DNA of 32,000 nucleotides from Acaryochloris marina MBIC11017 (GTDB lineage Bacteria; Cyanobacteriota; Cyanobacteriia; Thermosynechococcales; Thermosynechococcaceae). Both the position numbers and the translations under genes were made by a program. Numbering within the stretch: the stretch's first letter is position 1; each line of letters begins with the position of its first letter. The DNA lies in contig NC_009925.1 of the NCBI RefSeq assembly GCF_000018105.1, positions 3,810,001 to 3,842,000 of the forward strand. Direction: 5' to 3'. The notes under the pieces are model-generated. The model had not been told where the DNA came from. It was given only the letters and a program-made list of their open reading frames with translations, and made no database searches. Positions 3,445 through 17,045 of the stretch are shown in pieces.

Positions 3445-4897
3445 CGCTTCGTTCTCGGTTGATCCGGTTAAGCCGTCCAGTGCTCACTTATTGGGTTCTC
3501 CCCAAGCAATTTGGCACAGGGAAGACTGGATTCTGGGCCTTAATCATCAGCGTTGGTTAGAGCGAATTCGACAACGACAACGAGAGCTACAAGCGGTGAT
3601 GGAGCGAGAGGGCTATCCCAGAGTCCTGTTAGTTCAGGCTGATCCACTAGAGTTTTTAGCTGGATTGATGGCGGCGTGTTTATGTGATTGTCCTGTATTT
3701 CTCGGGAATCCCCATTGGCAACGTTCTGAATGGCAACAGGTGTTGCTGCTAGTTCAACCCCATGTTATTTGGGATGCCTCTCAGTTGCCTCCGGTAGATA
3801 TCCCAAAACCAGCCCCAGCTAAGCAAGAAGAGAAGGGATGGATTTTAATCTCTACCGGGGGCTCATCGGGACAGGTTCGATTTGCGATTCATACTTGGGA
3901 GACTCTAACTGCCTCGGTTGAAGGCTGCCAAAATCATTTTTTCGGTGGTGAATTGGATGCCATCAATTCCTGCTGCTGGTTACCCCTGTATCACGTCAGT
4001 GGGTTGATGCAGTTTATGCGATCGCTCCTTACATACGGTAAACTCCTCCTCCTCCCACGCCACTGTTTTTCTCCTGAAATCTCCTTGATGCCAGACATAG
4101 CGGCTTTTCTAGATCCGCAATCAGAGCAACCTTATTCCTTTTTTCTCTCCCTCGTTCCTACCCAACTCCAGCGATTCTTGCAACAGGGCGGCCCTCGTTT
4201 ACAATGGCTAGCCCGATTTCACACTATTTTGGTGGGGGGCGGTCCTGCATGGCCCGCTTTACTCCAGGGGGCTCGCCAGCACCAGTTGCGGTTGGCTTTA
4301 ACCTATGGCATGACGGAAACTGCTGCTCAAGTGGCGACATTAGATCCCGATCAATTCCTGCTCGGAGCAGCTCACAGTGGCCATGTTTTGCCCCATGCTC
4401 AAATTGCCATTGAGCATCAGCAACACCAGGGCATTGTGGCTCCTCAAACAGGACAGGTGGTGATTGAATGTACATCTCTTTGTAAAGGATATTACCCGCA
4501 ATTATTAGCCTCACCTCGTAAATTTTTTACGGATGATTTAGGGTATTTCAATAACCAAGGAGCATTGCATATTGTCGGTCGTTTAAGTCGCAAGATTATC
4601 TCTGGGGGGGAGAATGTTTTTCCCGAAGAAATAGAAAAATTAATTTTAAGTACAGGCCTCGTAAAAGATGTGACGGTGTTGGGCCAACCTCATCCCGATT
4701 GGGGCCAAATCATTACCGCCATTGTGGTTCCTGCAGCAGACTCCTTTTCCCTAATCGCATTGCAGACTTGTCTGAAGAATCAACTCAGCCCGTTTAAACA
4801 ACCAAAGCAATGGTATGTCTTGCCTCAGCTGCCCCGTAACCCTCAAGGTAAAATCGACCAATCACAGATGAGGAAACTACTTCAGGTTGATCAGTAG
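3437..4897 (+). CDS. menE: o-succinylbenzoate-CoA ligase (adenylate-forming enzyme)
   Basis: ORF 3404-4897. In-frame ATG at 3437 (MNNASF...) overlaps the menC stop. AMP-binding motifs are ISTGGSSGQVRF (P-loop-like), YGMTET, and GDLGYF-like DDLGYFNNQGALHIVGR, with GKI near the C-terminus. menC-menE adjacency is typical of phylloquinone clusters. Confidence 0.8.
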   Translation: MNNASFSVDPVKPSSAHLLGSPQAIWHREDWILGLNHQRWLERIRQRQRELQAVMEREGYPRVLLVQADPLEFLAGLMAACLCDCPVFLGNPHWQRSEWQQVLLLVQPHVIWDASQLPPVDIPKPAPAKQEEKGWILISTGGSSGQVRFAIHTWETLTASVEGCQNHFFGGELDAINSCCWLPLYHVSGLMQFMRSLLTYGKLLLLPRHCFSPEISLMPDIAAFLDPQSEQPYSFFLSLVPTQLQRFLQQGGPRLQWLARFHTILVGGGPAWPALLQGARQHQLRLALTYGMTETAAQVATLDPDQFLLGAAHSGHVLPHAQIAIEHQQHQGIVAPQTGQVVIECTSLCKGYYPQLLASPRKFFTDDLGYFNNQGALHIVGRLSRKIISGGENVFPEEIEKLILSTGLVKDVTVLGQPHPDWGQIITAIVVPAADSFSLIALQTCLKNQLSPFKQPKQWYVLPQLPRNPQGKIDQSQMRKLLQVDQ

Positions 4898-8632: not shown

Positions 8633-9736
8633 TTAGCGCTTGGCGTCAGCTTGATAGTAAACTTTTTCCCCATGATCAGGAACGTATCGGCAATCTCTTA
8701 AGGCAGTCCATAAACTTTTCCAAATGGGATCGGAAGACTTCCGATAGTACTCACCTAAGACCGGCTTGATTGCTTCTGTTGCAGTCAGTAAATGATAGTG
8801 AGGCATACCCAAGAAAATATGGTGGGCGACATGAGTACCAATATTGTGATGGATAGGATTGATAAACCCATAGTCATGGTCGATGGTGGAGAGGGCACCT
8901 TTGAGAAAATACCAGTTATCATTGGGGTACCAAGGTATGCTGGGTACGGTATGGTGCAACAGCGTGACAACATCTAACCAAACGATAAAGACAATATAGG
9001 GGCCGAGATAATATTTAACTAAGAATAACCAGCCATTGGTATAGGTGAGCGCTGCTAGAAAAGCGATCATGGCTCCCCATAGGACTGTACTGGTGATGAC
9101 GTCCCATTTCTCGGAAGGCTTGAATAAAGGGCTACTGGGTAGGAAATGAGAGCCCTTGCGTCCAGGAGACCGTTTGAAGAGGTAAATGGGATAGGCCAAT
9201 AGGGTCAAATAGTAACGGACAAATTTGACATCCTTCGGCATCTCTCGGTATTGCGTTTCCGTGGGAGGGTACCAACTTTCGTCCGTGTCGATATTGCCTG
9301 TATTGGCATGGTGGGTCCGGTGACTAATGCGCCAACCATGGAAAGGAACCAAAATTGGCGTATGGCTGAGATGTCCGATCAGATCGTTTAACCACTTGTA
9401 TTTGGAAAAGGAGCGATGACCACAGTCATGGCCGACGACGAATAAAGCCCAAAACATGGTGCCTTGAGCTAACCAAAAGATGGGCCAAAACCATAGAGCA
9501 TCAATTTGATAGGCAATGGCGTATAAACCAGCGATAATACCGATATCTAAAAAGAAATATGAGAGAGATCGCCAGGCTGAGGGCTCAAAGCAATGAGGGG
9601 GAATGGCTGCCCTTATATCTTGAAGGGTAAAAGGTAATTCTCTAGACCTAGAGACGTCAGGGCCTCTGGTTTCAATACCGGTAGAGTTTTGCACGAAAAA
9701 ATACTGCTTCCTTACGCTGTAGTGACCGAGTCTCAT
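8633..9736 (-). CDS. desB: Acyl-lipid omega-3 (DesB-type) fatty acid desaturase
   Basis: ORF 8633-9772. Three His boxes are present: HDCGH, HRTHH (WRISHRTHHANTGNIDTDESWYP) and HVAHH. ELPFTLQDIRAAIPPHCFEPS and GALSTIDHDYGFINPIHHNIGTHVAHHIF match my recollection of Synechocystis DesB rather than DesA, which has HDHHH. The start at MRLGHY (9736) is chosen by analogy, and 9772 is also possible. Confidence 0.8.
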   Translation of the reverse strand: MRLGHYSVRKQYFFVQNSTGIETRGPDVSRSRELPFTLQDIRAAIPPHCFEPSAWRSLSYFFLDIGIIAGLYAIAYQIDALWFWPIFWLAQGTMFWALFVVGHDCGHRSFSKYKWLNDLIGHLSHTPILVPFHGWRISHRTHHANTGNIDTDESWYPPTETQYREMPKDVKFVRYYLTLLAYPIYLFKRSPGRKGSHFLPSSPLFKPSEKWDVITSTVLWGAMIAFLAALTYTNGWLFLVKYYLGPYIVFIVWLDVVTLLHHTVPSIPWYPNDNWYFLKGALSTIDHDYGFINPIHHNIGTHVAHHIFLGMPHYHLLTATEAIKPVLGEYYRKSSDPIWKSLWTALRDCRYVPDHGEKVYYQADAKR

Positions 9737-10025
9737 TCTATCTCTTAACAAGTCGTAATCAAAGTCAAGCAATGACTCCGGTAAAAGTTTACAAAGTGAA
9801 ATAGTATTGACTTCAGGACAGATTTTCCTGATATCTATCTGAGTTAATTCTTCGGGGGGGTGATCGAGGTCAATCTATTCGGGGATTGAGACCACTAAGC
9901 TCTAGTGAGCCATATCTTATTTGCTCCGACTCTGCAGAATTGGACTCACTGATTACATTAAACTTTGCTGAGCTAACGGTTTTCGACCCAATCCTCTGAC
10001 GTTATTTCAGAACATATCTCCTGCC

Positions 10026-10994
10026 ATGATTACTCATCAAACCCTCTGTAAGAAACATCATTCGTTGAAGCGCAACTGCTTAAAATTCTTGAGTGTGAGC
10101 AGTGTTCTTCTTATCCTTATCAGTGGATGCAGTTCGGATAGCTCTAAATCCAAATCGAAGGCCCAAACAGAGGATCCGGCAGCAGCAAGTTCTCCAGCGC
10201 CGCTCAACTCAACGCCGACAAAATTAAAGTTAACGGTCGCTTCTCCTGAGTCTTTGCGTGTTAAACAGGGGGATTTGATTGTTAAGGGGCAAATTTTGGT
10301 CGATCGGACTGCAGCCCGCCAAAATATTATGGCTCGTCGTCAGAAGGTGCAACAAGAAGTGGCGCTTTTAACGGCGACTGAACAGATTCCGACGGCTCCA
10401 ACCAATACCAATGCCGCAGAGGTTCAGGTACAGCAAGCCCGAGAACGGGTTCGTTTAGCGGATGCTGCGATTCAAGATTATCTGGCTAAATCTCCTTACA
10501 CTGATTTGGCCCGCCAAACCCTGCCTCTACCGACAGAGGAGAAACAGTTAGCACAGTTGCAGTTCGCCAAAACATCAGCCCAAGCCCAGTTAGAGCAGGC
10601 TATTGCCCAACGTAAGTCGTTGCAGGCATCTCAACAAGCTCGACAACAGGGGCAGGCGGTTGCGTCTAGTAAAAAGATTCAACTTCTCAATGAGCTGAAA
10701 ACCATTGAGGCCCAACTCCAGTCGTTTCAGGATATTCTGTCTCCCCATGATGCGATTGTGCAAAAGGTCGACTGGCAAAAAAAGGGAAAGAACGGGACAA
10801 CGGTCGAACTTGCCCTAGCCGTTCATTCCCTGTCGGATCCGATTCCATCCTTGTCGAATGGCACCAATAATCCTCTGCTATCGGTGCCGAGTCCTGCCCC
10901 TGCTAGCGGACAACCCTTTCCCAGTCTTCCTGCACCCCTAGCCCCCACTCCCCAACCGCCAGGGCAGGTTCCGACTGCTGCTCAGCAGCCGTGA
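10026..10994 (+). CDS. Putative lipoprotein with a lipoyl/HlyD-like barrel motif, a Gln-rich coiled coil and a Pro-rich tail
   Basis: Lipobox LLILISGCSS. LKLTVASPESLRVKQGDLIVKGQILVD resembles the barrel-sandwich hairpin of membrane-fusion proteins. A long Q/A-rich helical segment follows, and the C-terminus is P-rich. Confidence 0.6.
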   Translation: MITHQTLCKKHHSLKRNCLKFLSVSSVLLILISGCSSDSSKSKSKAQTEDPAAASSPAPLNSTPTKLKLTVASPESLRVKQGDLIVKGQILVDRTAARQNIMARRQKVQQEVALLTATEQIPTAPTNTNAAEVQVQQARERVRLADAAIQDYLAKSPYTDLARQTLPLPTEEKQLAQLQFAKTSAQAQLEQAIAQRKSLQASQQARQQGQAVASSKKIQLLNELKTIEAQLQSFQDILSPHDAIVQKVDWQKKGKNGTTVELALAVHSLSDPIPSLSNGTNNPLLSVPSPAPASGQPFPSLPAPLAPTPQPPGQVPTAAQQP

Positions 10995-11192
10995 TGGAGC
11001 AGTTTAATCCGGTAGCCATGGGCTAGATCGCTTGAGAACTATGGCGGTTATAAATTGAGTATGTTAAGGTCAATGACTGGATCAATGGCGTGCTGTGAGG
11101 CAATGGTTCAGATTCTGAATATCTGACTGGCACTTTGACGCTGAAAATTGCAGATCAGTGTACCGCCAAACCCACAAGGTTGATTCACGATT

Positions 11193-11264
11193 GCTCGATT
11201 AGCTCAGAGGGAGAGCACCGAGGGGCCATCTCGGGGGGCGTAGGTTCGAATCCTACATCGACAA
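11193..11264 (+). tRNA. Aberrant tRNA-type gene with a GCC (Gly-type) anticodon triplet, a non-canonical anticodon loop and a mismatched 5' acceptor end
   Basis: Hand-folded cloverleaf. The 5' acceptor strand is GCTCGAT, followed by TA. D arm GCTC/AGAGGGA/GAGC. Anticodon arm CCGAG/GGGCCAT/CTCGG. Variable loop GGGGC. T arm GTAGG/TTCGAAT/CCTAC. The 3' acceptor strand is ATCGACA with discriminator A. Pairs 3-70 to 7-66 are Watson-Crick, but 1-72 is G.A and 2-71 is C.C. Position 33 is G instead of the near-invariant U. No CCA is encoded. It could be a pseudogene. Confidence 0.5.
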
Positions 11265-11267
11265 AAC

Positions 11268-11341
11268 TGAAAGCTAGCTCAGTTGGTTAGAGCATCAGAC
11301 TCATAATCTGACGGACACAGGTTCAAATCCTGTACTTTCCA
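11268..11341 (+). tRNA. tRNA with CAU anticodon (elongator Met or Ile2 type) with U1.C72 and C7.A66 acceptor mismatches
   Basis: The 5' acceptor strand is TGAAAGC, with U8 and A9. D arm GCTC/AGTTGGTTA/GAGC. Anticodon arm TCAGA/CTCATAA/TCTGA. Variable loop CGGAC. T arm ACAGG/TTCAAAT/CCTGT. The 3' acceptor strand is ACTTTCC, discriminator A, then CC. The core is very close to bacterial elongator tRNA-Met. It lacks the GGG/CCC anticodon stem of an initiator. It starts only 3 nt after the previous tRNA-type gene. Confidence 0.75.
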
Positions 11342-11343
11342 CC

Positions 11344-11433
11344 GCCCGGTTACGGGCACCTCGTTTGGGACGAGTTATTTCATCTGGTACGGGAGCAATC
11401 CCAAGGTGGTTCGAATCCGCTAAGACAGCACCC
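11344..11433 (+). ncRNA. tRNA-derived element: a Pro(UGG)-type D and anticodon arm, a 29-nt insert with a GNRA hairpin, and a T arm. There is no 5' acceptor strand.
   Basis: GCCC/GGTTAC/GGGC (D-arm-like, 11344-11357). CCTCG/TTTGGGA/CGAGT (11359-11375); the loop is identical to tRNA-Pro UGG loops. A 29-nt segment follows containing GGGA-GCAA-TCCC (11391-11402). Then GGTGG/TTCGAAT/CCGCT (11405-11421, with two G.U pairs) and AAGACAG-C-ACC. Only CC separates it from the discriminator of the preceding tRNA. It does not fold into a canonical cloverleaf. Confidence 0.4.
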
Positions 11434-11496
11434 GGTTGTTGGTGTCGCGTTGAGTGGGTCACCTGGTGATCCACCCAACAATAGCCAAAGGCCAGC

Positions 11497-11504
11497 GCGA
11501 TCGC
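11497..11504. repeat. HIP1 palindrome GCGATCGC (representative copy of a dispersed cyanobacterial repeat)
   Basis: I counted exact GCGATCGC at 4018, 5928, 11497, 12257, 13616, 17312, 17858, 26123, 26487, 28459, 30239 and 30872 (start positions). This density is characteristic of HIP1-rich cyanobacterial genomes. Confidence 0.9.
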
Positions 11505-11537
11505 AGTTGATGATCGGCTTGAGTAGGGTCCTTTGCA

Positions 11538-11571
11538 GGGCAAAGTCTGGCGTTCCCTCCAGACTTTGCCC
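11538..11571 (+). promoter_or_regulatory. Perfect 13-bp stem-loop in the leader upstream of the SPFH-kinase-TLP genes
   Basis: GGGCAAAGTCTGG (11538-11550), loop CGTTCCCT, CCAGACTTTGCCC (11559-11571). No U-tract follows, so it is not a classical terminator. An upstream CTTTGC (11531-11536) can pair with GCAAAG (11540-11545) as an alternative. Confidence 0.5.
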
Positions 11572-11754
11572 TAGCGAACGCCCTATTTGTTGGCGGTTGG
11601 ACCCATGCTTAATCTTCGGGTTGAGTTGCGGTTCTGCTCCACCTTAATTCAGCCAGTCACGGGCGATGGCCCGCACTGTAACTGTTGATGCCAGCAGCTT
11701 AGGGTGCCTTTAAAAGTGCAGATGGACCTGCACGAGAAGAAGAAGGAAATATCA

Positions 11755-13287
11755 ATGTTTAAGTCTTTTTACATTAAGCCCCATGAGCGGGGCATGTTGT
11801 TCTATCGCAGTAAGTTTGAGATGTTTTTGCTGCCGGGTACCCATCGCCGCATGGGGTGGCATTGGCAGGTGAAGACCTTTGATTTAAATCAGCCCCAAGC
11901 CCAGATTGACCATTTGGAGCTGCTATTGCAAACCCATGCCCACAGTATGAATGAGTATTTTACGGTGGTGCGCACGGTTCATAATCAAGCTGCCTTAGTG
12001 CGATTGGGACAACAATGGTGCACGATTGGTCCCAACCAGCTGCAAGCGTTTTGGCGTGGCTTTATTGAGGTAGAAGTGCATCTATTTAATCTGGATGAAG
12101 GGATTGACCTGCCGTCTCAGTTTGTCCAGCGATTGCGAGATGTATCGCTACCGGATTTGAATCTAGTCTCAATTCCTGAATCTCAGCTAGGGATGCTCTA
12201 TGAGCAGGATAATTTTGTGCGGCCTCTCGCGTCTGGAGAGTATGGGTTTTGGACCTGCGATCGCAAAGTCAGTATTACCCGCTATGATCGCACTCGTCCC
12301 GATCCAGATTTTACGTTTGTGGACGTACTGGTCGATGATCATCCCGATTTTGTCACCAGTCACTGTGAATTCGTGCAGTTAGGCAATCAGGAGGTTGCCA
12401 TTGTTCGCCATCAGGGCAAAGTGATTAGGATTTTGCCCCCCTGCAGTCGCCAGTTGTTCTGGCAAGGGGTTGCTGTTGAGGTGATTGATATTAGCGATGA
12501 TGCCAAGCTCTCACCTACATTGGTGGCTGAGTTGGTGGCTGGGGTACCCGAGGTATTGGATTTAGCCTATGAGGCCCTGTATATCTTGGAAGTCCCGGCC
12601 CAGCATTTAGGATTGCTGTATGAAGCCAGCGCTTTTGTCGATACCCTTTCTCCCGGCTGGCATGTCTGGTGGACTTTTGGCCGAGCCTGGAAAACGGAAA
12701 TTGTGGATTTGCGTTTGCAAACCCTAGAAGTCTCTGGCCAGGAAATTTTATCCAAGGATAAGGTGTCCCTGCGTCTAAACCTGACAGCGGGGTATCGGAT
12801 TACGGATCCGGTACAGGCTAAAGCTGGCTTGAGCAATATTGAGGATTATCTCTATAAAGAGCTGCAATTTGCTCTACGTTCGGCCGTGGGGACCAAGTCT
12901 CTAGATCAACTCCTAGAAGACAAGGGGGCGATTGATGCCAGCGTCTCTGACTATATCCGTGAGAAAACCGAGCAATATGGAGTTGCTATCGCATCTGTCG
13001 GTGTCAAAGACATCATTCTGCCCGGTGAGATGAAGTCGATTCTCTGTCAGGTGGTGGAAGCGGAAAAATCCGCCCAGGCTAACGTAATTCGTCGTCGAGA
13101 GGAGACTGCTGCTACCCGCAGTATGCTCAACACCGCTAAGGTGATGGAGAGTAATCCCGTGGCCTTGCGCTTGAAAGAGCTGGAGGTGCTGGAACGGATT
13201 GCGGACAAAATTGAGCATATTCATGTCAATGGCGGTCTCGATAGTATCTTGACTGAGATGATCCGCATCAACGGAACTAGAGAATAG
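11755..13287 (+). CDS. SPFH/band-7 (stomatin/slipin-like) protein with a repeated N-terminal region
   Basis: ORF 11704-13287. ATG 11755 is preceded by GAAGGAAATATCA (SD-like), giving MFKSFYIKPHERGMLF. The C-terminal half is a clear SPFH domain followed by a coiled coil: EILSKDKVSLRLNLTAGYRITDP...YGVAIASVGVKDIILPGEMKSILCQVVEAEKSAQANVIRRREETAATRS...LRLKELEVLERIA. Confidence 0.85.
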   Translation: MFKSFYIKPHERGMLFYRSKFEMFLLPGTHRRMGWHWQVKTFDLNQPQAQIDHLELLLQTHAHSMNEYFTVVRTVHNQAALVRLGQQWCTIGPNQLQAFWRGFIEVEVHLFNLDEGIDLPSQFVQRLRDVSLPDLNLVSIPESQLGMLYEQDNFVRPLASGEYGFWTCDRKVSITRYDRTRPDPDFTFVDVLVDDHPDFVTSHCEFVQLGNQEVAIVRHQGKVIRILPPCSRQLFWQGVAVEVIDISDDAKLSPTLVAELVAGVPEVLDLAYEALYILEVPAQHLGLLYEASAFVDTLSPGWHVWWTFGRAWKTEIVDLRLQTLEVSGQEILSKDKVSLRLNLTAGYRITDPVQAKAGLSNIEDYLYKELQFALRSAVGTKSLDQLLEDKGAIDASVSDYIREKTEQYGVAIASVGVKDIILPGEMKSILCQVVEAEKSAQANVIRRREETAATRSMLNTAKVMESNPVALRLKELEVLERIADKIEHIHVNGGLDSILTEMIRINGTRE

Positions 13288-13326
13288 AGCCGATCGGGCA
13301 TCGGCTCCACACTGAAAAGGCAAACG

Positions 13327-13770
13327 ATGGAAGCTGTAATCTTGGTGGGTATTCAGGCTACGGGTAAATCGACGTTTTATCACCACCAGTTTGGACGCAC
13401 CCATGTGCGGATCAACCTGGATATGTTGAAAACACGACATCGTGAGCAACAGTTTTTGGATACCTGCCTAGTCACCCGCCAACGGTTTGTGGTGGATAAC
13501 ACGAATCCTACCCCTGCTGAGCGACAGCGGTATATCCAACCCGCTCAACAACAGGGTTTTTCGATTACGGGGTATTACTTTGAATCGAAGTTGGCAGCGG
13601 CTTTGATTCGGAATTGCGATCGCACGCCTGACCAACGCATTCCAGACAAAGGGATTCGCGGGACAGCCTCTCGCCTGATCTTGCCTACCTATGATGAGGG
13701 GTTTGACCAGCTTTTTTCCGTTCGTCTTCTTCCTCATCAACAATTTTCGGTTGAGGATTGGCAATTATGA
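13327..13770 (+). CDS. Polynucleotide 5'-hydroxyl kinase (P-loop, PNKP / T4 Pnk kinase-domain family)
   Basis: 147 aa. Walker A VGIQATGKST, then RINLD (catalytic Asp context), VVDNTNPTPAERQRYIQPAQQQGFSITGYYFES, IRNCDR and PTYDEGFDQLFSV. This is collinear with my recollection of the mammalian PNKP kinase domain (VIDNTNPD..SR.RYI..A...G...RCF.F, ...P...EGF) and T4 Pnk (GSGKST, NRDD, SDTN, RNSKR). RBS AAAGG lies 6 nt upstream. Confidence 0.85.
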   Translation: MEAVILVGIQATGKSTFYHHQFGRTHVRINLDMLKTRHREQQFLDTCLVTRQRFVVDNTNPTPAERQRYIQPAQQQGFSITGYYFESKLAAALIRNCDRTPDQRIPDKGIRGTASRLILPTYDEGFDQLFSVRLLPHQQFSVEDWQL

Positions 13771-14528
13771 AATTTACTGAACTCGATCAAACCTTGAGGA
13801 TCTATGAAACCGCTTATGACCTCTGCGTTCTGCCTGGGCTGCAGATGGTCGCTCGGTTAGATGGACGGAATTTTACTCGGTTAACGAAAGAAACCCTCGA
13901 TTTAGATGCTCCCTTTGATGCCACCTTTCGAGATGCCATGGTGGCAACGGTTCAGCATTTGATGACCTGTGGATTTCGAGTCCTTTATGGCTATACCCAA
14001 AGCGATGAAATCTCTTTACTGCTGCACCCAGACGAGCAGACCTTTGCTCGTAAGCTACGTAAACTCAACTCCGTGCTTGCAGCGGAAGCTAGTGCGAAAA
14101 TGTCGTTGATCTTAGGCTGTATAGCAGTTTTCGACTGTCGAATCTCCCAACTGCCAACGGTGGATTTAGTGGTCGACTACTTCCGATGGCGACAAGAAGA
14201 TGCCCATCGCAATGCCCTCAATGCCCATTGCTACTGGATGTTGCGTAAAGGGGGTGATTCAGCGGGCACTGCAACCCAGAAATTAGAGGGATTATCCGTT
14301 GGCGATAAAAATGAATTGCTGTTTCAACTGGGGCAGATGAACTTTAACGACTTACCCCCCTGGCAAAAACGAGGAGTGGGCTGTCTTTGGCAGTCGTATC
14401 CAACGGCAGGTGTTAACCCTGTTTCAGGAGAAGTATCTCAAGGGACGCGAACGAAAATCGGCGTTGAGCTTAACTTGCCGATGAAAGAGCACTACAGGGA
14501 ATTTATCCTTAAGCGAATGACGCTCTAG
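13767..14528 (+). CDS. Thg1-like protein (TLP), tRNA(His) guanylyltransferase family 3'-5' nucleotidyltransferase
   Basis: ORF 13758-14528. ATG 13767 overlaps the kinase TGA (ATGA). Family hallmarks are VARLDGRNFTRLT, YGYTQSDEISLLL, VFDCRISQLP, DYFRWRQEDAHRNALNAHCYWML, GDKNELLF and WQKRG. These are collinear with eukaryotic Thg1 (VVRLDGRNFHRF, YGQSDEYSFVF, FDGRVV, YLSWRQADCHINNLYN, DKNEILF, RKG). Confidence 0.9.
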   Translation: MKFTELDQTLRIYETAYDLCVLPGLQMVARLDGRNFTRLTKETLDLDAPFDATFRDAMVATVQHLMTCGFRVLYGYTQSDEISLLLHPDEQTFARKLRKLNSVLAAEASAKMSLILGCIAVFDCRISQLPTVDLVVDYFRWRQEDAHRNALNAHCYWMLRKGGDSAGTATQKLEGLSVGDKNELLFQLGQMNFNDLPPWQKRGVGCLWQSYPTAGVNPVSGEVSQGTRTKIGVELNLPMKEHYREFILKRMTL

Positions 14529-15088
14529 TCCTGAGGTAAAACCCTAAGCCAGGGCTTATGGGCTCGGCGGCGCTCTAAACTCATTTCTAAGCCATAGGCT
14601 TTAAATTCTTGTTCACTGTAATATTCCCGGAACCGGGCTAAAGGGACACGGGATCGACCATCTAGAGAGTGAACAATAGAAGTCGGAAGACGGACATCCC
14701 CGCCTAAGTGAACAAAGGCTTCTTCCACTGTCATCCAGGGGCGTTTGGAATCGCTAACTTCTGTGGGAATGGCTTGTTCTAAACTGCTGAGTTTATCGGT
14801 TAGGCCCTTAACCATATTGCCGGGCTTGATATTCGAATTTTGCTTTGATTTCTGTAGTTTCCCCATCCATACTTGAAACAGAGAGCCGACATACTGGAAG
14901 ATTCGCTTGAGGATTCGCCCACAGACTTGCAGAATACTGCCAACCCCAGCCCCTTCTTGACTAGATGGGTTGTTATGGGAAGCGATAGCCGCACTAGACC
15001 AGCCGCAATGAGCACAAACTTGACGACCGGATTTGAGAGGAGGGCCTAAGCGATTGGAACAACGGGGGCAGGTTTCCAGCATAGTCAA
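14525..15088 (-). CDS. Hypothetical protein with an N-terminal zinc ribbon
   Basis: 187 aa. CPRCSNRLGPPLKSGRQVCAHCGW is a CxxC...CxxC motif. It is convergent with the TLP gene and overlaps it by 4 nt. No other family signature is recognised. Confidence 0.55.
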   Translation of the reverse strand: MTMLETCPRCSNRLGPPLKSGRQVCAHCGWSSAAIASHNNPSSQEGAGVGSILQVCGRILKRIFQYVGSLFQVWMGKLQKSKQNSNIKPGNMVKGLTDKLSSLEQAIPTEVSDSKRPWMTVEEAFVHLGGDVRLPTSIVHSLDGRSRVPLARFREYYSEQEFKAYGLEMSLERRRAHKPWLRVLPQD

Positions 15089-15127
15089 AGTCTCCTAAGA
15101 CAGGGATGCATGAACGAAGATAACAAG

Positions 15128-15583
15128 TTAAGTCAAGCTCTCTAGTGCAGATGTAGGACCTAGATTATGGAGGATTTCTAATGGTAAGCCGTCGGCATCA
15201 GCGGCAAAGGCCACATGATACGTTTGGTTACCAATGGTTTGTGGCATGGGATAAAGCAGGACTTTTAAGGTAATTGAAACTGCTTTGAGTCGTTCTCGCC
15301 ATTGTTCAAGCCAGGTCGATAAGGTTTGGTCTGCCAATAGGTCATCTGTGACATCTATCGATAAATGATAATAGCCTACGTAATGTTCGTCGCCAAAGGC
15401 ATCGGCTGGCGGTTGAGGATCTGGGATTTGAATCAGTTCGAGTCTGCCAATCGGACCCTCCAGCCAACACCCCAGAGTATACCCAGTTGTAAATCGTTCG
15501 ATAACGTCGAAGTCTAGAGTTTGATAGAACGTGATCGCCCGGTGGATATCCCCGGTCCGAATCGACATATGATGCCCCTTCAT
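15128..15583 (-). CDS. VOC-family (glyoxalase/bleomycin-resistance/dioxygenase fold) protein
   Basis: 151 aa. The N-terminal IHRAITFYQTLDFDV and the later YHLSIDV, HVAFAADADGLPLEI follow the paired beta-alpha-beta-beta-beta VOC pattern. An alternative start is MSIRTG at 15568. Confidence 0.7.
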   Translation of the reverse strand: MKGHHMSIRTGDIHRAITFYQTLDFDVIERFTTGYTLGCWLEGPIGRLELIQIPDPQPPADAFGDEHYVGYYHLSIDVTDDLLADQTLSTWLEQWRERLKAVSITLKVLLYPMPQTIGNQTYHVAFAADADGLPLEILHNLGPTSALESLT

Positions 15584-15655
15584 GGCGATATCCCGATACG
15601 CTGACCATTAGATATACCATAGCCTTATCATCGCTGAGCTATAGATTCAGAAGGC

Positions 15656-16162
15656 TTAATCAAATAGGCGAAAATGAGGAGAATTACTGGGAATACCAGG
15701 TTCCTTATCGAGATCAAAGTTAATGACTTGCCAGCGAGGATCATCCTCAGAGTCTGGGCTAAATTCTACGGGTAACCCATATAAGCGCGGACGCCCGGAC
15801 GGGTTTTTCTCGGACCAAGGGGAATGTTCTAGATAGGTGTTGATTAAGATTCGATAGCGTTGGGCAATAATCACTTTGGTGGCACGATACCCTTCGGTAT
15901 AGAGGCGATCTAGGGCTTCATGGATTTCAAAGCGAATCCCATCAGGATGGGTATGTTGGCGGTACCATTGCCCATCCCATAACCGCCAATGACGCCCCGA
16001 TTGAAGGTGGACCAAATCTTCGGTCTTGGGGTCGGCTTCAAAGGCACCGTGACGTTGGCAAAGATAGGTATCGGTTAAGGTTAAAGCGGTCATCATTTGC
16101 CGGCAATGGGGACAGAGTGTCTCAGGCCCAAAAATTGGATAGTGCATGCTGACATGTGTCAT
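15656..16162 (-). CDS. Conserved hypothetical protein (CxxC ... C..H metal-binding-like N-terminus)
   Basis: 168-aa ORF with no competing frame. It contains MHYPIFGPETLCPHCRQMMTALTLTDTYLCQRHGAF. It looks like a cyanobacteria-restricted conserved protein, but I cannot name the family with certainty. Confidence 0.6.
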   Translation of the reverse strand: MTHVSMHYPIFGPETLCPHCRQMMTALTLTDTYLCQRHGAFEADPKTEDLVHLQSGRHWRLWDGQWYRQHTHPDGIRFEIHEALDRLYTEGYRATKVIIAQRYRILINTYLEHSPWSEKNPSGRPRLYGLPVEFSPDSEDDPRWQVINFDLDKEPGIPSNSPHFRLFD

Positions 16163-16245
16163 GGAGTCAGAAAGAGCCGAAGAACTCTGGTTGCCGCTCA
16201 GGTGGCTTCATTATAACTGTGAATTGTTGAGCGTGGCTGTTCTGA

Positions 16246-16845
16246 ATGGTCTGGAGGCTGTCTCTTTTCAGGGTAGGATCGAGGCGGTGTTTTAACCCGA
16301 TAACCTTGGAATTTTCTAGTCCCCAATATTGGCCACCACCAGATTGTTCCTTAGCGGCATTTGTGGCAGATAATGCCACGGTGATCGGCAATATTCAAAT
16401 TAATCGAGAGGCAAGCATTTGGTATGGTGCGGTGCTGCGGGGTGATGTAGAACGCATTGAAATTGGTGAATATACCAATATTCAAGATGGGGCCATTCTC
16501 CATGGTGATCCAGGACAGCCAACGATTCTAGAAGATTATGTGACTGTTGGTCATCGAGCAGTGATTCATTCAGCTCATATTGAGCGAGGCACATTGATTG
16601 GCATTGGCGCCATTGTTCTCAATGGCGTGCATATTGGTGCTGGCAGCATTATTGGGGCTGGGGCAGTGGTTTCGAAGTCGGTTCCCCCTCGGTCCCTGTG
16701 GGTAGGGATACCTGCCAAGCCTTTACGAGAACTGAGTGAAGCAGAATCCGATAATTTGATAGACCATGCCCGCCACTATCAAAAATTGGCTTTAGTTCAC
16801 GCCAATCGCGGGACTGATTTGGGTTTCAAAACTATTGAGCGCTAA
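16246..16845 (+). CDS. Gamma-carbonic-anhydrase-family / left-handed beta-helix (hexapeptide repeat) protein
   Basis: AAFVADNATVIGNIQINREASIWYGAVLRGDVERIEIGEYTNIQDGAILHGD...VTVGHRAVIHSAHIERGTLIGIGAIVLNGVHIGAGSIIGAGAVV is the YrdA/PaaY-type LbH pattern with conserved His residues. The true start is probably downstream of 16246, for example TTG 16306. Confidence 0.85.
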   Translation: MVWRLSLFRVGSRRCFNPITLEFSSPQYWPPPDCSLAAFVADNATVIGNIQINREASIWYGAVLRGDVERIEIGEYTNIQDGAILHGDPGQPTILEDYVTVGHRAVIHSAHIERGTLIGIGAIVLNGVHIGAGSIIGAGAVVSKSVPPRSLWVGIPAKPLRELSEAESDNLIDHARHYQKLALVHANRGTDLGFKTIER

Positions 16846-16934
16846 GTCTAAGGGATTCCGATTAGAAAAATCTGACTAATTGTAGGACAATAAGTAAAAA
16901 GTGCTTTTAAAATAATTCTGAGAGGAGATTGAGC

Positions 16935-17045
16935 ATGGATGTACGTTTATTAATTGTTTTAGCTCCTGTTGCTATTGCTGGTGGTTGGGCTTTGTTCAGA
17001 ATCTTCCCCGCCGCTATCGAGCAATGGCAAGGCATGAACAAGTAA
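16935..17045 (+). CDS. psbY: Photosystem II protein Y
   Basis: Not in the ORF track (36 aa). ATG 16935 is preceded by GAGAGGAG. It translates as [36 protein letters not shown]. This is the length, single-TM layout and MD.R.l.VL.P...a.gWA pattern of PsbY. Confidence 0.75.

What the first reader, a model, noticed from the sequence alone, without database searches (positions are those of the whole stretch)
11193..14528. Candidate tRNA 5'-end editing/repair locus: defective-5'-end tRNA genes, then an SPFH protein, a polynucleotide 5'-kinase and a Thg1-like 3'-5' polymerase
Seen in sequence: three tRNA-type elements are packed within 241 nt, and each is damaged specifically on the 5' acceptor side. 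They lie about 320 nt upstream of a same-strand gene string. That string is an SPFH protein (11755-13287), a 39-nt gap with no terminator, a PNKP/T4-Pnk-type kinase (13327-13770), and a Thg1-like protein (13767-14528) joined by an ATGA overlap. Established knowledge: Thg1-family enzymes polymerise nucleotides 3'-to-5' onto a 5'-phosphorylated (then adenylylated) or 5'-triphosphorylated RNA end. TLPs use the 3' acceptor strand as template. They carry out mitochondrial tRNA 5' editing in amoebozoa, where mismatches in the first three acceptor positions are removed and rebuilt. Bacterial and archaeal TLPs repair 5'-truncated tRNAs in vitro, but as far as I know their natural substrates are not established. 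Inference: this locus places a possible substrate set (tRNA genes with mismatched or missing 5' ends) next to the two enzymes needed to phosphorylate and rebuild a 5' end. It may therefore be a self-contained bacterial tRNA 5'-editing or 5'-repair system. I cannot verify whether this exact arrangement has been described before.
Basis: partly seen in the sequence, partly recalled or inferred. Interest (0 to 1): 0.9.

Follow-up and report, generated by a model that had tools for sequence, protein, structure and literature searches.

The report
tRNA-like RNAs beside RNA-repair genes
Three tRNA-shaped RNA genes that cannot all read codons normally accompany a cyanobacterial SPFH/Band-7 protein gene, and here they lie next to a known kinase plus reverse-polymerase RNA-repair gene pair, so they look like conserved partner RNAs rather than broken tRNA genes waiting to be edited.

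Summary
The features are real: two tRNA-model hits (E1 11193-11265, E2 11268-11343), a third partial tRNA-like element (E3 11344-11432), an SPFH/Band-7 gene, a PNK-type kinase and a Thg1-like polymerase (TLP).

The proposed link, defective tRNA genes as editing substrates of the TLP, is not supported.
- Kinase-TLP is a two-gene cassette described in 2010. A full-length kinase lies upstream of the TLP in 54 of 80 genomes from many phyla, without conserved tRNA neighbours. It recurs next to Hen1/Pnkp/RlaP repair genes.
- The tRNA-like trio follows the SPFH ("slipin") gene. It lies upstream of slipin in 10 of 11 cyanobacterial genomes. Five of these have no kinase or TLP within 4 kb.
- E1 and E2 are under strong structural selection, with cloverleaf covariation. 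Their "anticodon" loops are 4-7 nt long and vary between genomes.
- E1's 5' mismatches occur in only 3 of 11 genomes. E2's 1-72 mismatch is kept in 9 of 11, with or without an adjacent TLP.

This matches the predicted "Band-7-associated tRNA" module of RNA-repair systems (Burroughs and Aravind 2016), here joined to kinase-TLP. I read the locus as a new variant of a known kind, of moderate interest.

The parts
11108..11126 (+). Upstream conserved hairpin H0 (TCAGAT / loop TCTGAAT / ATCTGA). It marks the start of the conserved noncoding unit.
   Evidence: Read from the sequence and alignments. The stem covaries in L246 (TCAGGG/CCCTGA) and L245 (GGGT/ACCC). The region 11050-11191 is 0.77-0.96 identical between genomes, against 0.50-0.86 at 4-fold sites.
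11193..11265 (+). E1: a tRNA-shaped RNA gene with a non-canonical 'anticodon' loop (GGGCCAU, no U33). In this genome the acceptor end has G1.A72 and C2.C71, or a bulged C2.
   Evidence: Detected (41.7 bits). In 11 genomes, 97.3% of cells are paired, 11 of 21 pairs show double changes, and 0 of 500 shuffles reach the observed values. Loop length is 4-7 nt. The acceptor stem is fully paired in 8 of 11 genomes.
11268..11343 (+). E2: a tRNA-shaped RNA gene related to tRNA-Met, with loop CUCAUAA. It has a conserved 1-72 mismatch (U.C here) and a clade-specific C7.A66.
   Evidence: Detected (60.4 bits). Cells are 92.6% paired and 7 of 21 pairs show double changes. The anticodon is CAU, CAC, UGU or UAU in different genomes, and 1-72 is unpaired in 9 of 11.
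11344..11432 (+). E3: a partial tRNA-like module. It has a D-like arm, a tRNA-Pro(UGG)-type anticodon arm (11360-11374), a long insert with the hairpin GGGAGCAATCCC, and a T arm (11405-11421). It has no 5' acceptor strand and its 3' tail is not conserved.
   Evidence: Supported. The arms are kept by compensatory changes (GCCC/GGGC versus GUCC/GGAC; CCUCG/CGAGG versus CUACC/GGUAG versus CCUUG/CAAGG), read. In L246 a T-run follows the T arm.
11433..11754 (+). Conserved noncoding block downstream of E3. It contains a HIP1 site (11496-11503), a 13-bp hairpin (11538-11571) and the Band-7 ribosome-binding region.
   Evidence: The block is 0.74-0.95 identical between genomes. Most of it travels with the trio, not with slipin, in L246. 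L245 and L247 are 74% identical over 689 nt.
11755..13287 (+). SPFH/Band-7 'slipin family' protein of 510 aa. It has four N-terminal five-stranded beta repeats, a fifth such sheet that opens the stomatin-type SPFH domain, and a long C-terminal helix.
   Evidence: Pfam Band_7, E = 5e-30. It is widespread in cyanobacteria at 63% identity or more. The AF2 model has pLDDT 83. Foldseek matches stomatin over the C-terminal half and the major vault protein over the full length.
13288..13306 (+). A 7-bp hairpin (AGCCGAT/ATCGGCT) in the 39-nt spacer between SPFH and kinase, with no T-run.
13327..13770 (+). Polynucleotide-kinase-family P-loop kinase of 147 aa.
   Evidence: AAA_33, E = 4e-11. TIGR01663 PNK region, E = 1e-12. 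It aligns to the mammalian PNKP kinase domain, including the P-loop and the N-x-D motif. A full-length homologue lies upstream of the TLP in 54 of 80 loci, and within 40 nt of it in 52.
13767..14528 (+). Thg1-like protein (TLP), a templated 3'-5' RNA polymerase of 253 aa. ATGA overlap with the kinase gene.
   Evidence: Thg1 plus Thg1C. D32, D80 and E81 are invariant. The best solved relatives are the M. acetivorans and B. thuringiensis TLPs. The overlap is shown.

Best explanation
The locus joins two modules that comparative genomics had already predicted for bacterial RNA-repair systems.

Module A is a conserved cyanobacterial unit. It consists of a roughly 590-nt noncoding gene with three tandem tRNA-shaped modules (E1-E3) followed by a soluble SPFH/Band-7 protein. 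[quoted passage not shown]

Module B is the mobile PNK-kinase plus Thg1-like polymerase cassette. The kinase would phosphorylate a 5'-OH RNA end. The TLP would then activate that end and refill missing 5' nucleotides, using the 3' acceptor strand as template.

In one Acaryochloris-related lineage, module B was inserted 39 nt downstream of the Band-7 gene and has stayed there. It is probably co-transcribed with it.

On this reading, E1-E3 are stable, non-decoding tRNA mimics that work with the Band-7 oligomer. They might act as an adaptor, decoy or platform for tRNA-binding repair enzymes, by analogy with Ro60-YrlA-RtcB. They are not genes that need 5' editing.

Shown: the identities of the genes, the linkage patterns, and structural selection on the RNAs. 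Inferred: co-transcription, the Band-7-RNA interaction, the functional coupling to kinase-TLP, and the nature of the repaired substrate (probably cellular tRNAs with damaged 5' ends).
For: - Kinase and TLP identity and intact motifs.
- The kinase-Thg1 operon was published in 2010 with the same mechanistic reading. A full-length kinase lies upstream of the TLP in 54 of 80 loci.
- Recurrent neighbours of kinase-TLP are Hen1 (8 loci), Pnkp (8), RlaP (5), RNA ligase (2) and MazF (2). Everything else looks random.
- The trio plus slipin unit occurs in 10 of 11 cyanobacterial genomes with otherwise unrelated neighbours. Five of these have no kinase or TLP within 4 kb.
- Region 11050-11754 is 0.74-1.00 identical between genomes (0.74-0.94 in the distant pairs), against 0.50-0.58 at 4-fold sites in the same distant pairs.
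- Cloverleaf covariation is strong for E1 and E2.
- Loops are variable or non-canonical.
- In L246 two opposite-strand genes separate the trio from slipin, and in L248 one same-strand gene does. The RNAs are therefore their own unit, not just a 5' leader.
- The literature describes a Band-7 protein plus an adjacent predicted tRNA-like ncRNA (b7a-tRNA) next to RtcB. These were proposed as RNA-repair cofactors and had not been validated experimentally.
- The SPFH-kinase-TLP order is kept in all five relatives whose contig covers the three genes, down to 78% TLP identity.
Against: - Band-7 is next to kinase-TLP only in this one lineage among the 80 TLP loci. The junction may therefore be a neutral insertion.
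- There are no expression, processing or binding data.
- I could not read Burroughs and Aravind 2016. Equating E1-E3 with their b7a-tRNA rests on a one-paragraph citation and on my memory of that abstract.
- RtcB, the enzyme named in that description, is absent here.
- The slipin of Acaryochloris thomasi has no trio within 4 kb.
Confidence: 0.55

Rival explanations
1. E1-E3 are tRNA genes with defective 5' ends. After trimming, their transcripts are phosphorylated by the kinase and rebuilt by the TLP. This would be a bacterial counterpart of mitochondrial tRNA 5' editing.
For: - In this window E1 has mismatches at 1-72 and 2-71, E2 has one at 1-72, and E3 lacks a 5' strand.
- Acceptor defects are somewhat more frequent in the TLP-linked clade. 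E1 is defective in 3 of 6 genomes there against 0 of 5 elsewhere. E2 has the 7-66 mismatch in 5 of 6 there against 0 of 5 elsewhere.
- TLPs repair 5'-truncated tRNAs in vitro, and their natural substrates are unknown.
- tRNA-like genes also lie beside TLP-containing repair clusters in L036/L250 and L079.
Against: - E1 is perfectly paired in L086, L081 and L001, which have the same operon.
- The E2 1-72 mismatch persists in four of the five genomes without an adjacent TLP.
- The 7-66 mismatch lies outside the first three acceptor positions, which are the ones 5' editing rebuilds.
- The 3' tail of E3 is not conserved, so it is not a template.
- The anticodon loops are not conserved, so there is no decoding function to rescue.
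- There is no conserved tRNA adjacency in the other 79 genome loci.
- The clade contrast is phylogenetically a single event.
Confidence: 0.08
2. Coincidental neighbours. The trio and slipin form a cyanobacterial RNA-protein unit with a function unrelated to RNA repair, for example a vault-like or membrane-scaffold particle with bound small RNAs. The kinase-TLP cassette merely landed downstream and is maintained there for expression only.
For: - Slipin plus trio exists without kinase or TLP in five other cyanobacteria.
- Kinase-TLP is a self-sufficient cassette in most genomes, with random neighbours.
- Band-7 adjacency is seen in one lineage only.
Against: - The tight 39-nt junction has no terminator and has been kept although 4-fold sites are nearly saturated.
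- An independent prediction from the literature holds that Band-7 plus tRNA-like RNA modules associate with RNA-repair enzymes.
Confidence: 0.27
3. A cis-acting leader. The tRNA-like modules are processing punctuation (RNase P and RNase Z sites) or a stability and regulatory element of the slipin mRNA, with no function in trans.
For: - The trio has the same orientation as slipin and usually lies 120-630 nt upstream of it.
- The consensus scan finds no + strand promoter anywhere in 10900-11800. The only terminator-like site is a weak one inside E3, at 11360-11374.
- The whole spacer is conserved.
Against: - In L246 two opposite-strand genes lie between the trio and slipin. In L248 another gene intervenes. 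Both the trio and its downstream conserved block are kept there.
- In L246 the T arm of E3 is followed by a T-run.
Confidence: 0.08
4. Decaying tRNA pseudogenes with no function.
For: The loops are non-canonical, the acceptor stems are mismatched in this window, and E3 is truncated.
Against: - The region is far more conserved than neutral sites.
- Compensatory changes occur in all four stems of E1 and E2.
- The elements are retained across at least four cyanobacterial orders.
Confidence: 0.02

Closest known systems
[quoted passage not shown]
   Same: A Band-7 domain protein is encoded next to a predicted ncRNA that closely resembles a tRNA, in a neighbourhood with RNA-repair enzymes.
   Different: - The repair enzymes here are a PNK kinase and a Thg1-like polymerase, not RtcB.
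- There are two complete tRNA-like modules plus a third truncated one.
- In most cyanobacteria the pair stands alone, with no repair enzyme within 4 kb.
- Whether the Band-7 proteins are orthologous could not be checked, because the paper is not held.
Conserved bacterial polynucleotide-kinase - Thg1 operon (Anantharaman, Iyer and Aravind 2010, PMC2904730)
   Same: The P-loop PNK-family kinase lies immediately upstream of the Thg1-family gene. The proposed division of labour is the same: the kinase makes the 5'-phosphate that Thg1 extends.
   Different: That paper lists Macro-domain and RNA-ligase neighbours. Its text does not mention Band-7 or SPFH and reports no tRNA-like gene as a neighbour.
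Ro60 (Rsr) - YrlA Y RNA - RtcB/RtcA operon
   Same: A tRNA-mimicking ncRNA is encoded beside a ring- or cage-forming RNA-binding scaffold and RNA-repair enzymes. The mimic lacks a functional anticodon loop.
   Different: There is no TROVE/Ro60 gene here. The YrlA model scores only 19.7 bits against a gathering score of 69. E1 and E2 are complete cloverleaves with free acceptor ends.
Bacterial Pnkp-Hen1 (and RlaP) RNA-repair system
   Same: It is the recurrent neighbour of the same kinase-TLP cassette in other phyla, for example L079, L036, L020, L055, L060, L066 and L073.
   Different: Hen1, Pnkp and RlaP are not next to the cassette in this clade. tblastn finds none in the close relative L001, and the Pfam-annotated neighbours of L081 and L082 include none. 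The window outside 9000-17000 was not annotated. SPFH occupies the neighbouring position here.
Mitochondrial tRNA 5' editing in Amoebozoa (DdiTLP3)
   Same: A TLP is present together with tRNA-type genes that have mismatches at acceptor positions 1-2 in this genome.
   Different: In mitochondria the mismatches are a fixed property of functional decoder genes. Here they are not conserved (E1) or are independent of TLP adjacency (E2), and the RNAs are not conserved decoders.
Eukaryotic vault particle (major vault protein plus vault RNA)
   Same: The protein has N-terminal beta repeats, an SPFH 'shoulder' and a long helix, and it is genetically tied to small structured RNAs. Foldseek aligns the full-length model to MVP over about 585-627 columns, with E = 2e-14 to 1e-10.
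   Different: There are four or five repeats here, not nine. The N-terminal half alone matches MVP only marginally (E = 6.6e-3, probability 0.69). There is no TEP1 or PARP homologue. Nothing shows that a particle forms.

Membership tests
Thg1/TLP 3'-5' polymerase family | Thg1 palm domain plus the Thg1 C-terminal domain | tested here: met
   PF04446, E = 6.5e-28. PF14413, E = 1.7e-16.
Thg1/TLP 3'-5' polymerase family | Metal-binding carboxylates (the D of DGRxF and the DE of SDEIS) | tested here: met
   D32, D80 and E81 are invariant in 20 sequences.
Thg1/TLP 3'-5' polymerase family | Belongs to the archaeal/bacterial TLP branch rather than to eukaryotic Thg1 | tested here: met
   The best solved relatives are the M. 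acetivorans TLP (5axk, E = 8e-25) and the B. thuringiensis TLP (4kgk). They score ahead of the human and yeast Thg1 structures.
Thg1/TLP 3'-5' polymerase family | Templated 5'-end repair activity on truncated tRNA | not testable with these tools
   This needs an enzyme assay.
Polynucleotide 5'-kinase (T4 Pnk / PNKP type P-loop kinase) | Walker A motif, catalytic Asp after strand 2, and homology to a known PNK kinase domain | tested here: met
   GIQATGKST and INLD align to the GFPGAGKST and VNRD of PNKP (3u7g, E = 2e-08). TIGR01663 kinase region, E = 1.2e-12, below the full-length cut-off because there is no phosphatase domain.
PNK-Thg1 conserved operon (2010) | Kinase gene immediately upstream of the Thg1-family gene on the same strand | tested here: met
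   ATGA overlap here. In the 80 loci, 52 have a full-length kinase ending within 40 nt of the TLP.
Band-7 + b7a-tRNA module | Protein with a Band-7/SPFH domain | tested here: met
   PF01145, E = 5e-30. Stomatin structures, E = 2e-25.
Band-7 + b7a-tRNA module | Adjacent predicted ncRNA that strongly resembles a tRNA, with conserved linkage | tested here: met
   There are two tRNA-model hits of 40-63 bits upstream of slipin in 10 of 11 genomes. Covariation is shown.
Band-7 + b7a-tRNA module | Neighbourhood with the RtcB ligase | tested here: not met
   None of the Pfam-annotated genes of the slipin loci is an RtcB. Kinase-TLP is the only repair enzyme pair there, and only in one lineage.
Band-7 + b7a-tRNA module | Same Band-7 subfamily and same RNA family as in the original description | not testable with these tools
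   The original paper is not held. Only a secondary citation was read.
Ordinary decoding tRNA gene | 7-nt anticodon loop with U33 and a purine at 37, with the anticodon conserved among orthologues | tested here: not met
   E1 has loops of 4, 5, 6 or 7 nt and mostly lacks U33. E2 has CAU, CAC, UGU or UAU, and G33 in two genomes.
Ordinary decoding tRNA gene | Cloverleaf with conserved D and T arms | tested here: met
tRNA 5'-editing system (mitochondrial type) | Gene-encoded mismatches in acceptor positions 1-3 that are a fixed feature of the genes | tested here: not met
   E1 is mismatched in 3 of 11 genomes. E2 has the 1-72 mismatch in 9 of 11, but also where no TLP is adjacent.
tRNA 5'-editing system (mitochondrial type) | Mature 5' sequence differs from the gene | not testable with these tools
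   This needs tRNA-seq or circularised RT-PCR.
YrlA / bacterial Y RNA | Match to the YrlA covariance model, and an adjacent Ro60/Rsr gene | tested here: not met
   19.7 bits against a gathering score of 69. There is no TROVE protein among the neighbours.
Major vault protein | Tandem MVP-type beta repeats, then an SPFH shoulder, then a cap helix | tested here: inconclusive
   The full-length model aligns to MVP with E = 2e-14. The N-terminal 280 aa alone give only E = 6.6e-3 and probability 0.69. There is no Pfam Vault hit.
Known anti-phage defence systems (PADLOC) | Match to any PADLOC model | tested here: not met
   There were no hits for SPFH, kinase, TLP or the downstream ORF.

The most novel reading that the evidence does not exclude
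The Band-7 protein may assemble into a soluble, vault-like cage that carries the tRNA-shaped RNAs E1-E3. In this lineage it may recruit the kinase and the Thg1-like polymerase. That would make the particle a dedicated station for repairing RNA 5' ends. E1 and E2 would serve either as the natural substrates and sentinels of the TLP or as adaptors that present damaged tRNAs. If so, this would be the first physiological partner RNA for a bacterial TLP and a prokaryotic counterpart of the vault ribonucleoprotein.
Probability: 0.12. Interest if true: 0.85.

Novelty: new variant of a known kind. Interest (0 to 1): 0.5.

Why it matters
Bacterial Thg1-like polymerases are conserved at 61-70% identity across many phyla. 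Their natural substrates are still unknown. The predicted Band-7-associated tRNA had not been validated experimentally as of 2018.

This work contributes three things.
- It removes an attractive but wrong shortcut, that adjacent 'broken' tRNA genes are the substrates.
- It gives strong comparative evidence that the Band-7-linked tRNA mimics are real, selected RNAs. They occur in culturable cyanobacteria: PCC 7424, PCC 7203 and PCC 7507.
- It identifies a lineage in which this RNA-protein pair is fused to the kinase-TLP cassette. That lineage is a natural place to test whether tRNA mimics and SPFH scaffolds take part in RNA 5'-end repair.

Tried and rejected
- **Integration remnants.** I considered that the tRNA fragments were left by a genomic island integrating at a tRNA gene. 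I rejected this because the neighbourhood is conserved housekeeping (fatty-acid desaturase, PsbY, PsbU, LipA, Ycf66) with no integrase.
- **Pseudogene decay.** Rejected on conservation and covariation.
- **Metagenome scan.** I spent the single metagenome scan, and one viral scan, on a 19-nt E3 pattern. It turned out to be the generic tRNA-Pro(UGG) anticodon arm: 146 of 157 matches lie in called tRNA-Pro genes. This revealed the origin of E3 but gave no new homologues.
- **Defence systems.** The PADLOC models gave nothing.
- **Known RNA families.** Rfam finds only tRNA in the window.
- **One large RNA.** RNAalifold suggested long-range helices enclosing the trio, with two compensatory pairs. 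I did not pursue this, and it remains a possibility.
- **Hidden Band-7 proteins.** I tested whether the orphan proteins next to tRNA-like genes in other TLP clusters are Band-7 or slipin relatives: the 480-aa protein of L079 and the 794-aa protein of L250. There was no similarity.
- **Vault-likeness of the slipin N-terminus alone.** Inconclusive.
- **Literature.** I could not retrieve Burroughs and Aravind 2016. No held paper mentions Thg1 together with Band-7 or SPFH.

Full report
**1. What is in the window**

ARAGORN finds two adjacent tRNA genes, at 11192-11265 (anticodon gcc) and 11268-11343 (cat). The Rfam tRNA model scores them 41.7 and 60.4 bits against a gathering score of 29. They are the only Rfam hits in the 32-kb window.

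The first element, E1, has the loop GGGCCAU, without U33. Its acceptor end reads G1.A72 and C2.C71. Infernal instead aligns it as a 6-bp stem with one bulged base. The second, E2, has a canonical loop, CUCAUAA, but U1.C72 and C7.A66 mismatches.

A third element, E3 (11344-11432), follows E2 directly. It has a D-like hairpin and an anticodon arm identical to that of tRNA-Pro(UGG). The 19-nt pattern lies inside called tRNA-Pro genes in 146 of 157 matches elsewhere. E3 also has a long insert and a perfect T arm. It has no 5' acceptor strand.

The gene string begins 322 nt downstream:
- an SPFH/Band-7 protein (11755-13287);
- a 39-nt spacer with a 7-bp hairpin and no T-run;
- a PNK-family kinase (13327-13770);
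- a Thg1-like protein (13767-14528), joined to the kinase by an ATGA overlap.

The catalytic residues of the kinase and the TLP are present.

**2. The kinase-TLP pair is a known, mobile cassette**

The TLP has thousands of relatives (7,935 proteins at E <= 1e-5). The listed ones are 61-70% identical across Cyanobacteria, Chloroflexota, Planctomycetota, Acidobacteriota, Bacteroidota, Bacillota and Proteobacteria.

I examined 80 genome loci:
- a full-length homologue of the kinase lies upstream of the TLP in 54, and within 40 nt in 52;
- four more loci have partial hits;
- three cannot be assessed.

This association, and the idea that the kinase supplies the 5'-phosphate for Thg1, was published in 2010.

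I surveyed 103 flanking ORFs. The only recurrent neighbour families are Hen1, Pnkp, RlaP, RNA ligase and MazF. By tblastn, Hen1 and Pnkp each occur in 8 loci and RlaP in 5. An RNA-repair role for the cassette is thus well supported.

Band-7 is next to the cassette only in the window's own lineage. No PADLOC defence model matches.

**3. There is no general tRNA-TLP adjacency**

ARAGORN and a T-arm motif scan over the 80 loci (0.94 Mb, together with six syntenic loci and the window) find tRNAs in only a minority of loci. They are at scattered positions and have normal acceptor stems.

Three loci are worth recording:
- In L079 (Acidobacteriota), a tRNA-like gene (CUG, C37, U1-A72) lies between an orphan ORF and kinase-TLP-Hen1-Pnkp.
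- In L036/L250 (Planctomycetota), two tandem tRNA-like paralogues, one with a 6-nt loop, lie beside Hen1-DUF5677-RlaP-RlaP-kinase-TLP-Pnkp.
- In L026 (Phycisphaerae), three 74-75-nt 'tRNA-Leu' genes lacking the long arm lie 1.3 kb from the TLP.

They hint that tRNA mimics recur near such clusters, but they are a small minority.

**4. The tRNA-like trio is selected, not decaying**

Five relatives carry the same locus in the same housekeeping neighbourhood: L086, L081, L082, L001 and L084, with 98-78% TLP identity.

In the distant pairs, 4-fold degenerate sites are only 0.50-0.58 identical, and ordinary spacers are 0.42-0.75 identical. By contrast, 11050-11754 is 0.74-0.94 identical.

The substitutions that do occur fall in the 'anticodon' loops and acceptor ends. 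E1's loop is GGGCCAU, AGGGGAU, ACAGC, CAGA or CUUA, while its stem is kept by compensatory changes. E2 switches between CAU and CAC. In L084, E2 has gained a UUCG-capped extra arm.

**5. The trio belongs with the SPFH gene**

The SPFH protein is a 'slipin family protein' found throughout cyanobacteria at 63% identity or more. I fetched six further slipin loci.

Five of them carry two tandem tRNA-model hits upstream of slipin on the same strand (44-63 bits), and in most an E3-like module. These are Gloeothece PCC 7424, Chroococcidiopsis PCC 7203, Calothrix PCC 7507, Altericista CCNU0014 and GCA_020357715.1. Their other neighbours are unrelated to one another. No kinase or TLP lies within 4 kb. 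Only Acaryochloris thomasi lacks the trio.

The noncoding regions are homologous. The window and L246 are 70% identical over 456 nt. PCC 7424 and PCC 7203 are 74% identical over 689 nt.

Results across the 11 genomes:

| Feature | E1 | E2 |
|---|---|---|
| Cells paired in the cloverleaf | 97.3% | 92.6% |
| Pairs with changes on both sides | 11 of 21 | 7 of 21 |
| Shuffles reaching the observed paired percentage or covariation score | 0 of 500 | 0 of 500 |
| Paired when the 3' partner is slid | 28-42% | 27-46% |

ARAGORN's anticodon calls range over gcc, ggg, cag, taa, gta, ttt or none for E1, and cat, cac, tgt or tat for E2. These are tRNA-shaped RNAs without a conserved decoding identity.

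In L246 two opposite-strand genes separate the trio from slipin. There the conserved block downstream of E3 stays with the trio, and the T arm of E3 is followed by a T-run. The RNAs are therefore their own unit rather than merely a leader.

**6. The '5' defects'**

E1's acceptor stem is fully paired in 8 of 11 genomes. These include L086, whose TLP is 98% identical to the window's. Only the window and L084 have the G1/C71 form, and L082 has C1.C72.

E2's 1-72 pair is unpaired in 9 of 11 genomes, with five different nucleotide combinations. It is unpaired in four of the five genomes that have no adjacent TLP. It therefore looks like a selected mismatch that does not depend on an adjacent TLP.

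E2's C7.A66 is specific to this clade and lies outside the first three acceptor positions, which are the ones 5' editing rebuilds. E3's 3' tail is not conserved and could not serve as a template.

The higher number of acceptor defects in the TLP-linked clade is a single phylogenetic event and cannot carry the hypothesis.

**7. Comparison with what is known**

A paper on YrlA structure summarises Burroughs and Aravind (2016). [quoted passage not shown] This RNA is interchangeable in gene neighbourhoods with Ro60/YrlA, is proposed to assist RNA ligation, and had not been validated experimentally.

From my own memory, the abstract of that 2016 paper names SPFH/Band-7 modules with 'a novel tRNA-like molecule' as potential scaffolding cofactors of RNA-repair systems. 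I could not obtain the paper. No held paper mentions Thg1 together with Band-7 or SPFH.

The window thus combines two predicted modules: the Band-7/b7a-tRNA pair and the PNK-Thg1 pair. RtcB is absent, so I treat the locus as a variant and not as a plain member.

**8. The SPFH protein**

An AlphaFold2 model (pLDDT 83) shows four N-terminal five-stranded beta repeats and a fifth such sheet that opens the stomatin-type SPFH domain. A long C-terminal helix follows, and I saw no obvious hydrophobic membrane segment on reading the sequence.

Foldseek aligns the C-terminal half to stomatin, HflK/C and prohibitin. It aligns the full length to the major vault protein over about 585-627 columns, with E = 2e-14 to 1e-10.

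The N-terminal 280 residues alone match MVP only marginally (E = 6.6e-3, probability 0.69). A vault-like architecture is suggestive but not established.

**9. Verdict**

The locus is best read as a Band-7 protein with its cognate tRNA-mimic RNAs. In one cyanobacterial lineage the known kinase-TLP 5'-end repair cassette has been attached to this pair. The specific claim of a self-contained tRNA 5'-editing system acting on adjacent defective tRNA genes is not supported, although it is not formally excluded (about 8%).

What remains interesting:
- the comparative evidence that the Band-7-linked tRNA mimics are real and widespread in culturable cyanobacteria;
- the conserved 1-72 mismatch of E2;
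- the natural fusion with a TLP, which offers an experimental route to the unknown function of bacterial TLPs.

Noticed in passing
L036 364-558 (minus strand) = L250 about 4364-4558: Two tandem tRNA-like paralogues with the same body. One has a UCG loop and the other a 6-nt loop. Both start with U1-A72. They lie divergently beside a Planctomycetota cluster Hen1-DUF5677-RlaP-RlaP-kinase-TLP-Pnkp. On their own strand they are followed by a 794-aa protein with no detectable family.
   Followed up: partly
L079 5052-5125: In a Pyrinomonadaceae genome, a tRNA-like gene (anticodon CUG, C at position 37, U1-A72, and a helix extendable to 10 bp) sits between a 480-aa orphan ORF and kinase-TLP-Hen1-Pnkp.
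   Followed up: partly
L026 2005-2279 (minus strand): Three tandem 74-75-nt 'tRNA-Leu' genes (gag, taa, cag) have Leu-type D arms but no long variable arm. They lie 1.3 kb downstream of a Phycisphaerae TLP.
   Followed up: no
L009 6887-7251: A tmRNA gene (202.8 bits) lies about 130 nt downstream of the TLP in a Trueperaceae genome. This is probably coincidental.
   Followed up: no
window 11193 and 11263 (E1 positions 1 and 71): The window and the distant relative L084 share G1/C71. The near-identical relative L086, and also L081 and L001, have U1/G71. The same double change in non-sister genomes suggests recombination or selection for a bulged-C2 helix.
   Followed up: partly
window 11433-11680: A conserved noncoding block lies downstream of E3. 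It contains a HIP1 palindrome GCGATCGC (11496-11503), a 13-bp hairpin (11538-11571) with covarying stem, and the motifs CCTTCGGG, TTAATCCAG and GCCCGCAC. In L246 it stays with the tRNA-like trio rather than with the slipin gene.
   Followed up: partly
window 11040-11126: A conserved upstream block includes the hairpin TCAGAT-TCTGAAT-ATCTGA. Its stem sequence repeats the anticodon stem of E2 (TCAGA/TCTGA). RNAalifold also proposes that this flank pairs with the region after E3, with two compensatory pairs.
   Followed up: partly
L084 about 2527-2540 (inside E2): A 10-nt insertion in the variable region of E2 creates an extra GGAC-UUCG-GUCC hairpin. This turns E2 into a long-arm tRNA shape in that genome.
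   Followed up: no
window 14525-15088 (minus strand): A convergent 187-aa ORF overlaps the TLP stop codon by 4 nt. It has an N-terminal CxxC...CxxC zinc-ribbon-like motif and no family match in Pfam, NCBIfam or PADLOC. It is syntenic in all relatives whose contig extends that far.
   Followed up: partly
Flanks of kinase-TLP in the 80 genome loci (alignment A9): Two loci have a MazF/PemK endoribonuclease toxin and two have an RNA ligase directly beside the kinase-TLP cassette. This fits a response to RNA-cleaving toxins.
   Followed up: no
L247 1496-3213: In Chroococcidiopsis PCC 7203, a ParE toxin gene and a reverse transcriptase (RVT_1) gene lie immediately upstream of the tRNA-like trio.
   Followed up: no
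L245 3295-3370: In Gloeothece PCC 7424, E2 has a C1.A72 mismatch and three G-C pairs at the base of the anticodon stem. These are the hallmarks of bacterial initiator tRNA. Its loop, however, is UGUAUCC, which suggests descent from an initiator-type tRNA.
   Followed up: no
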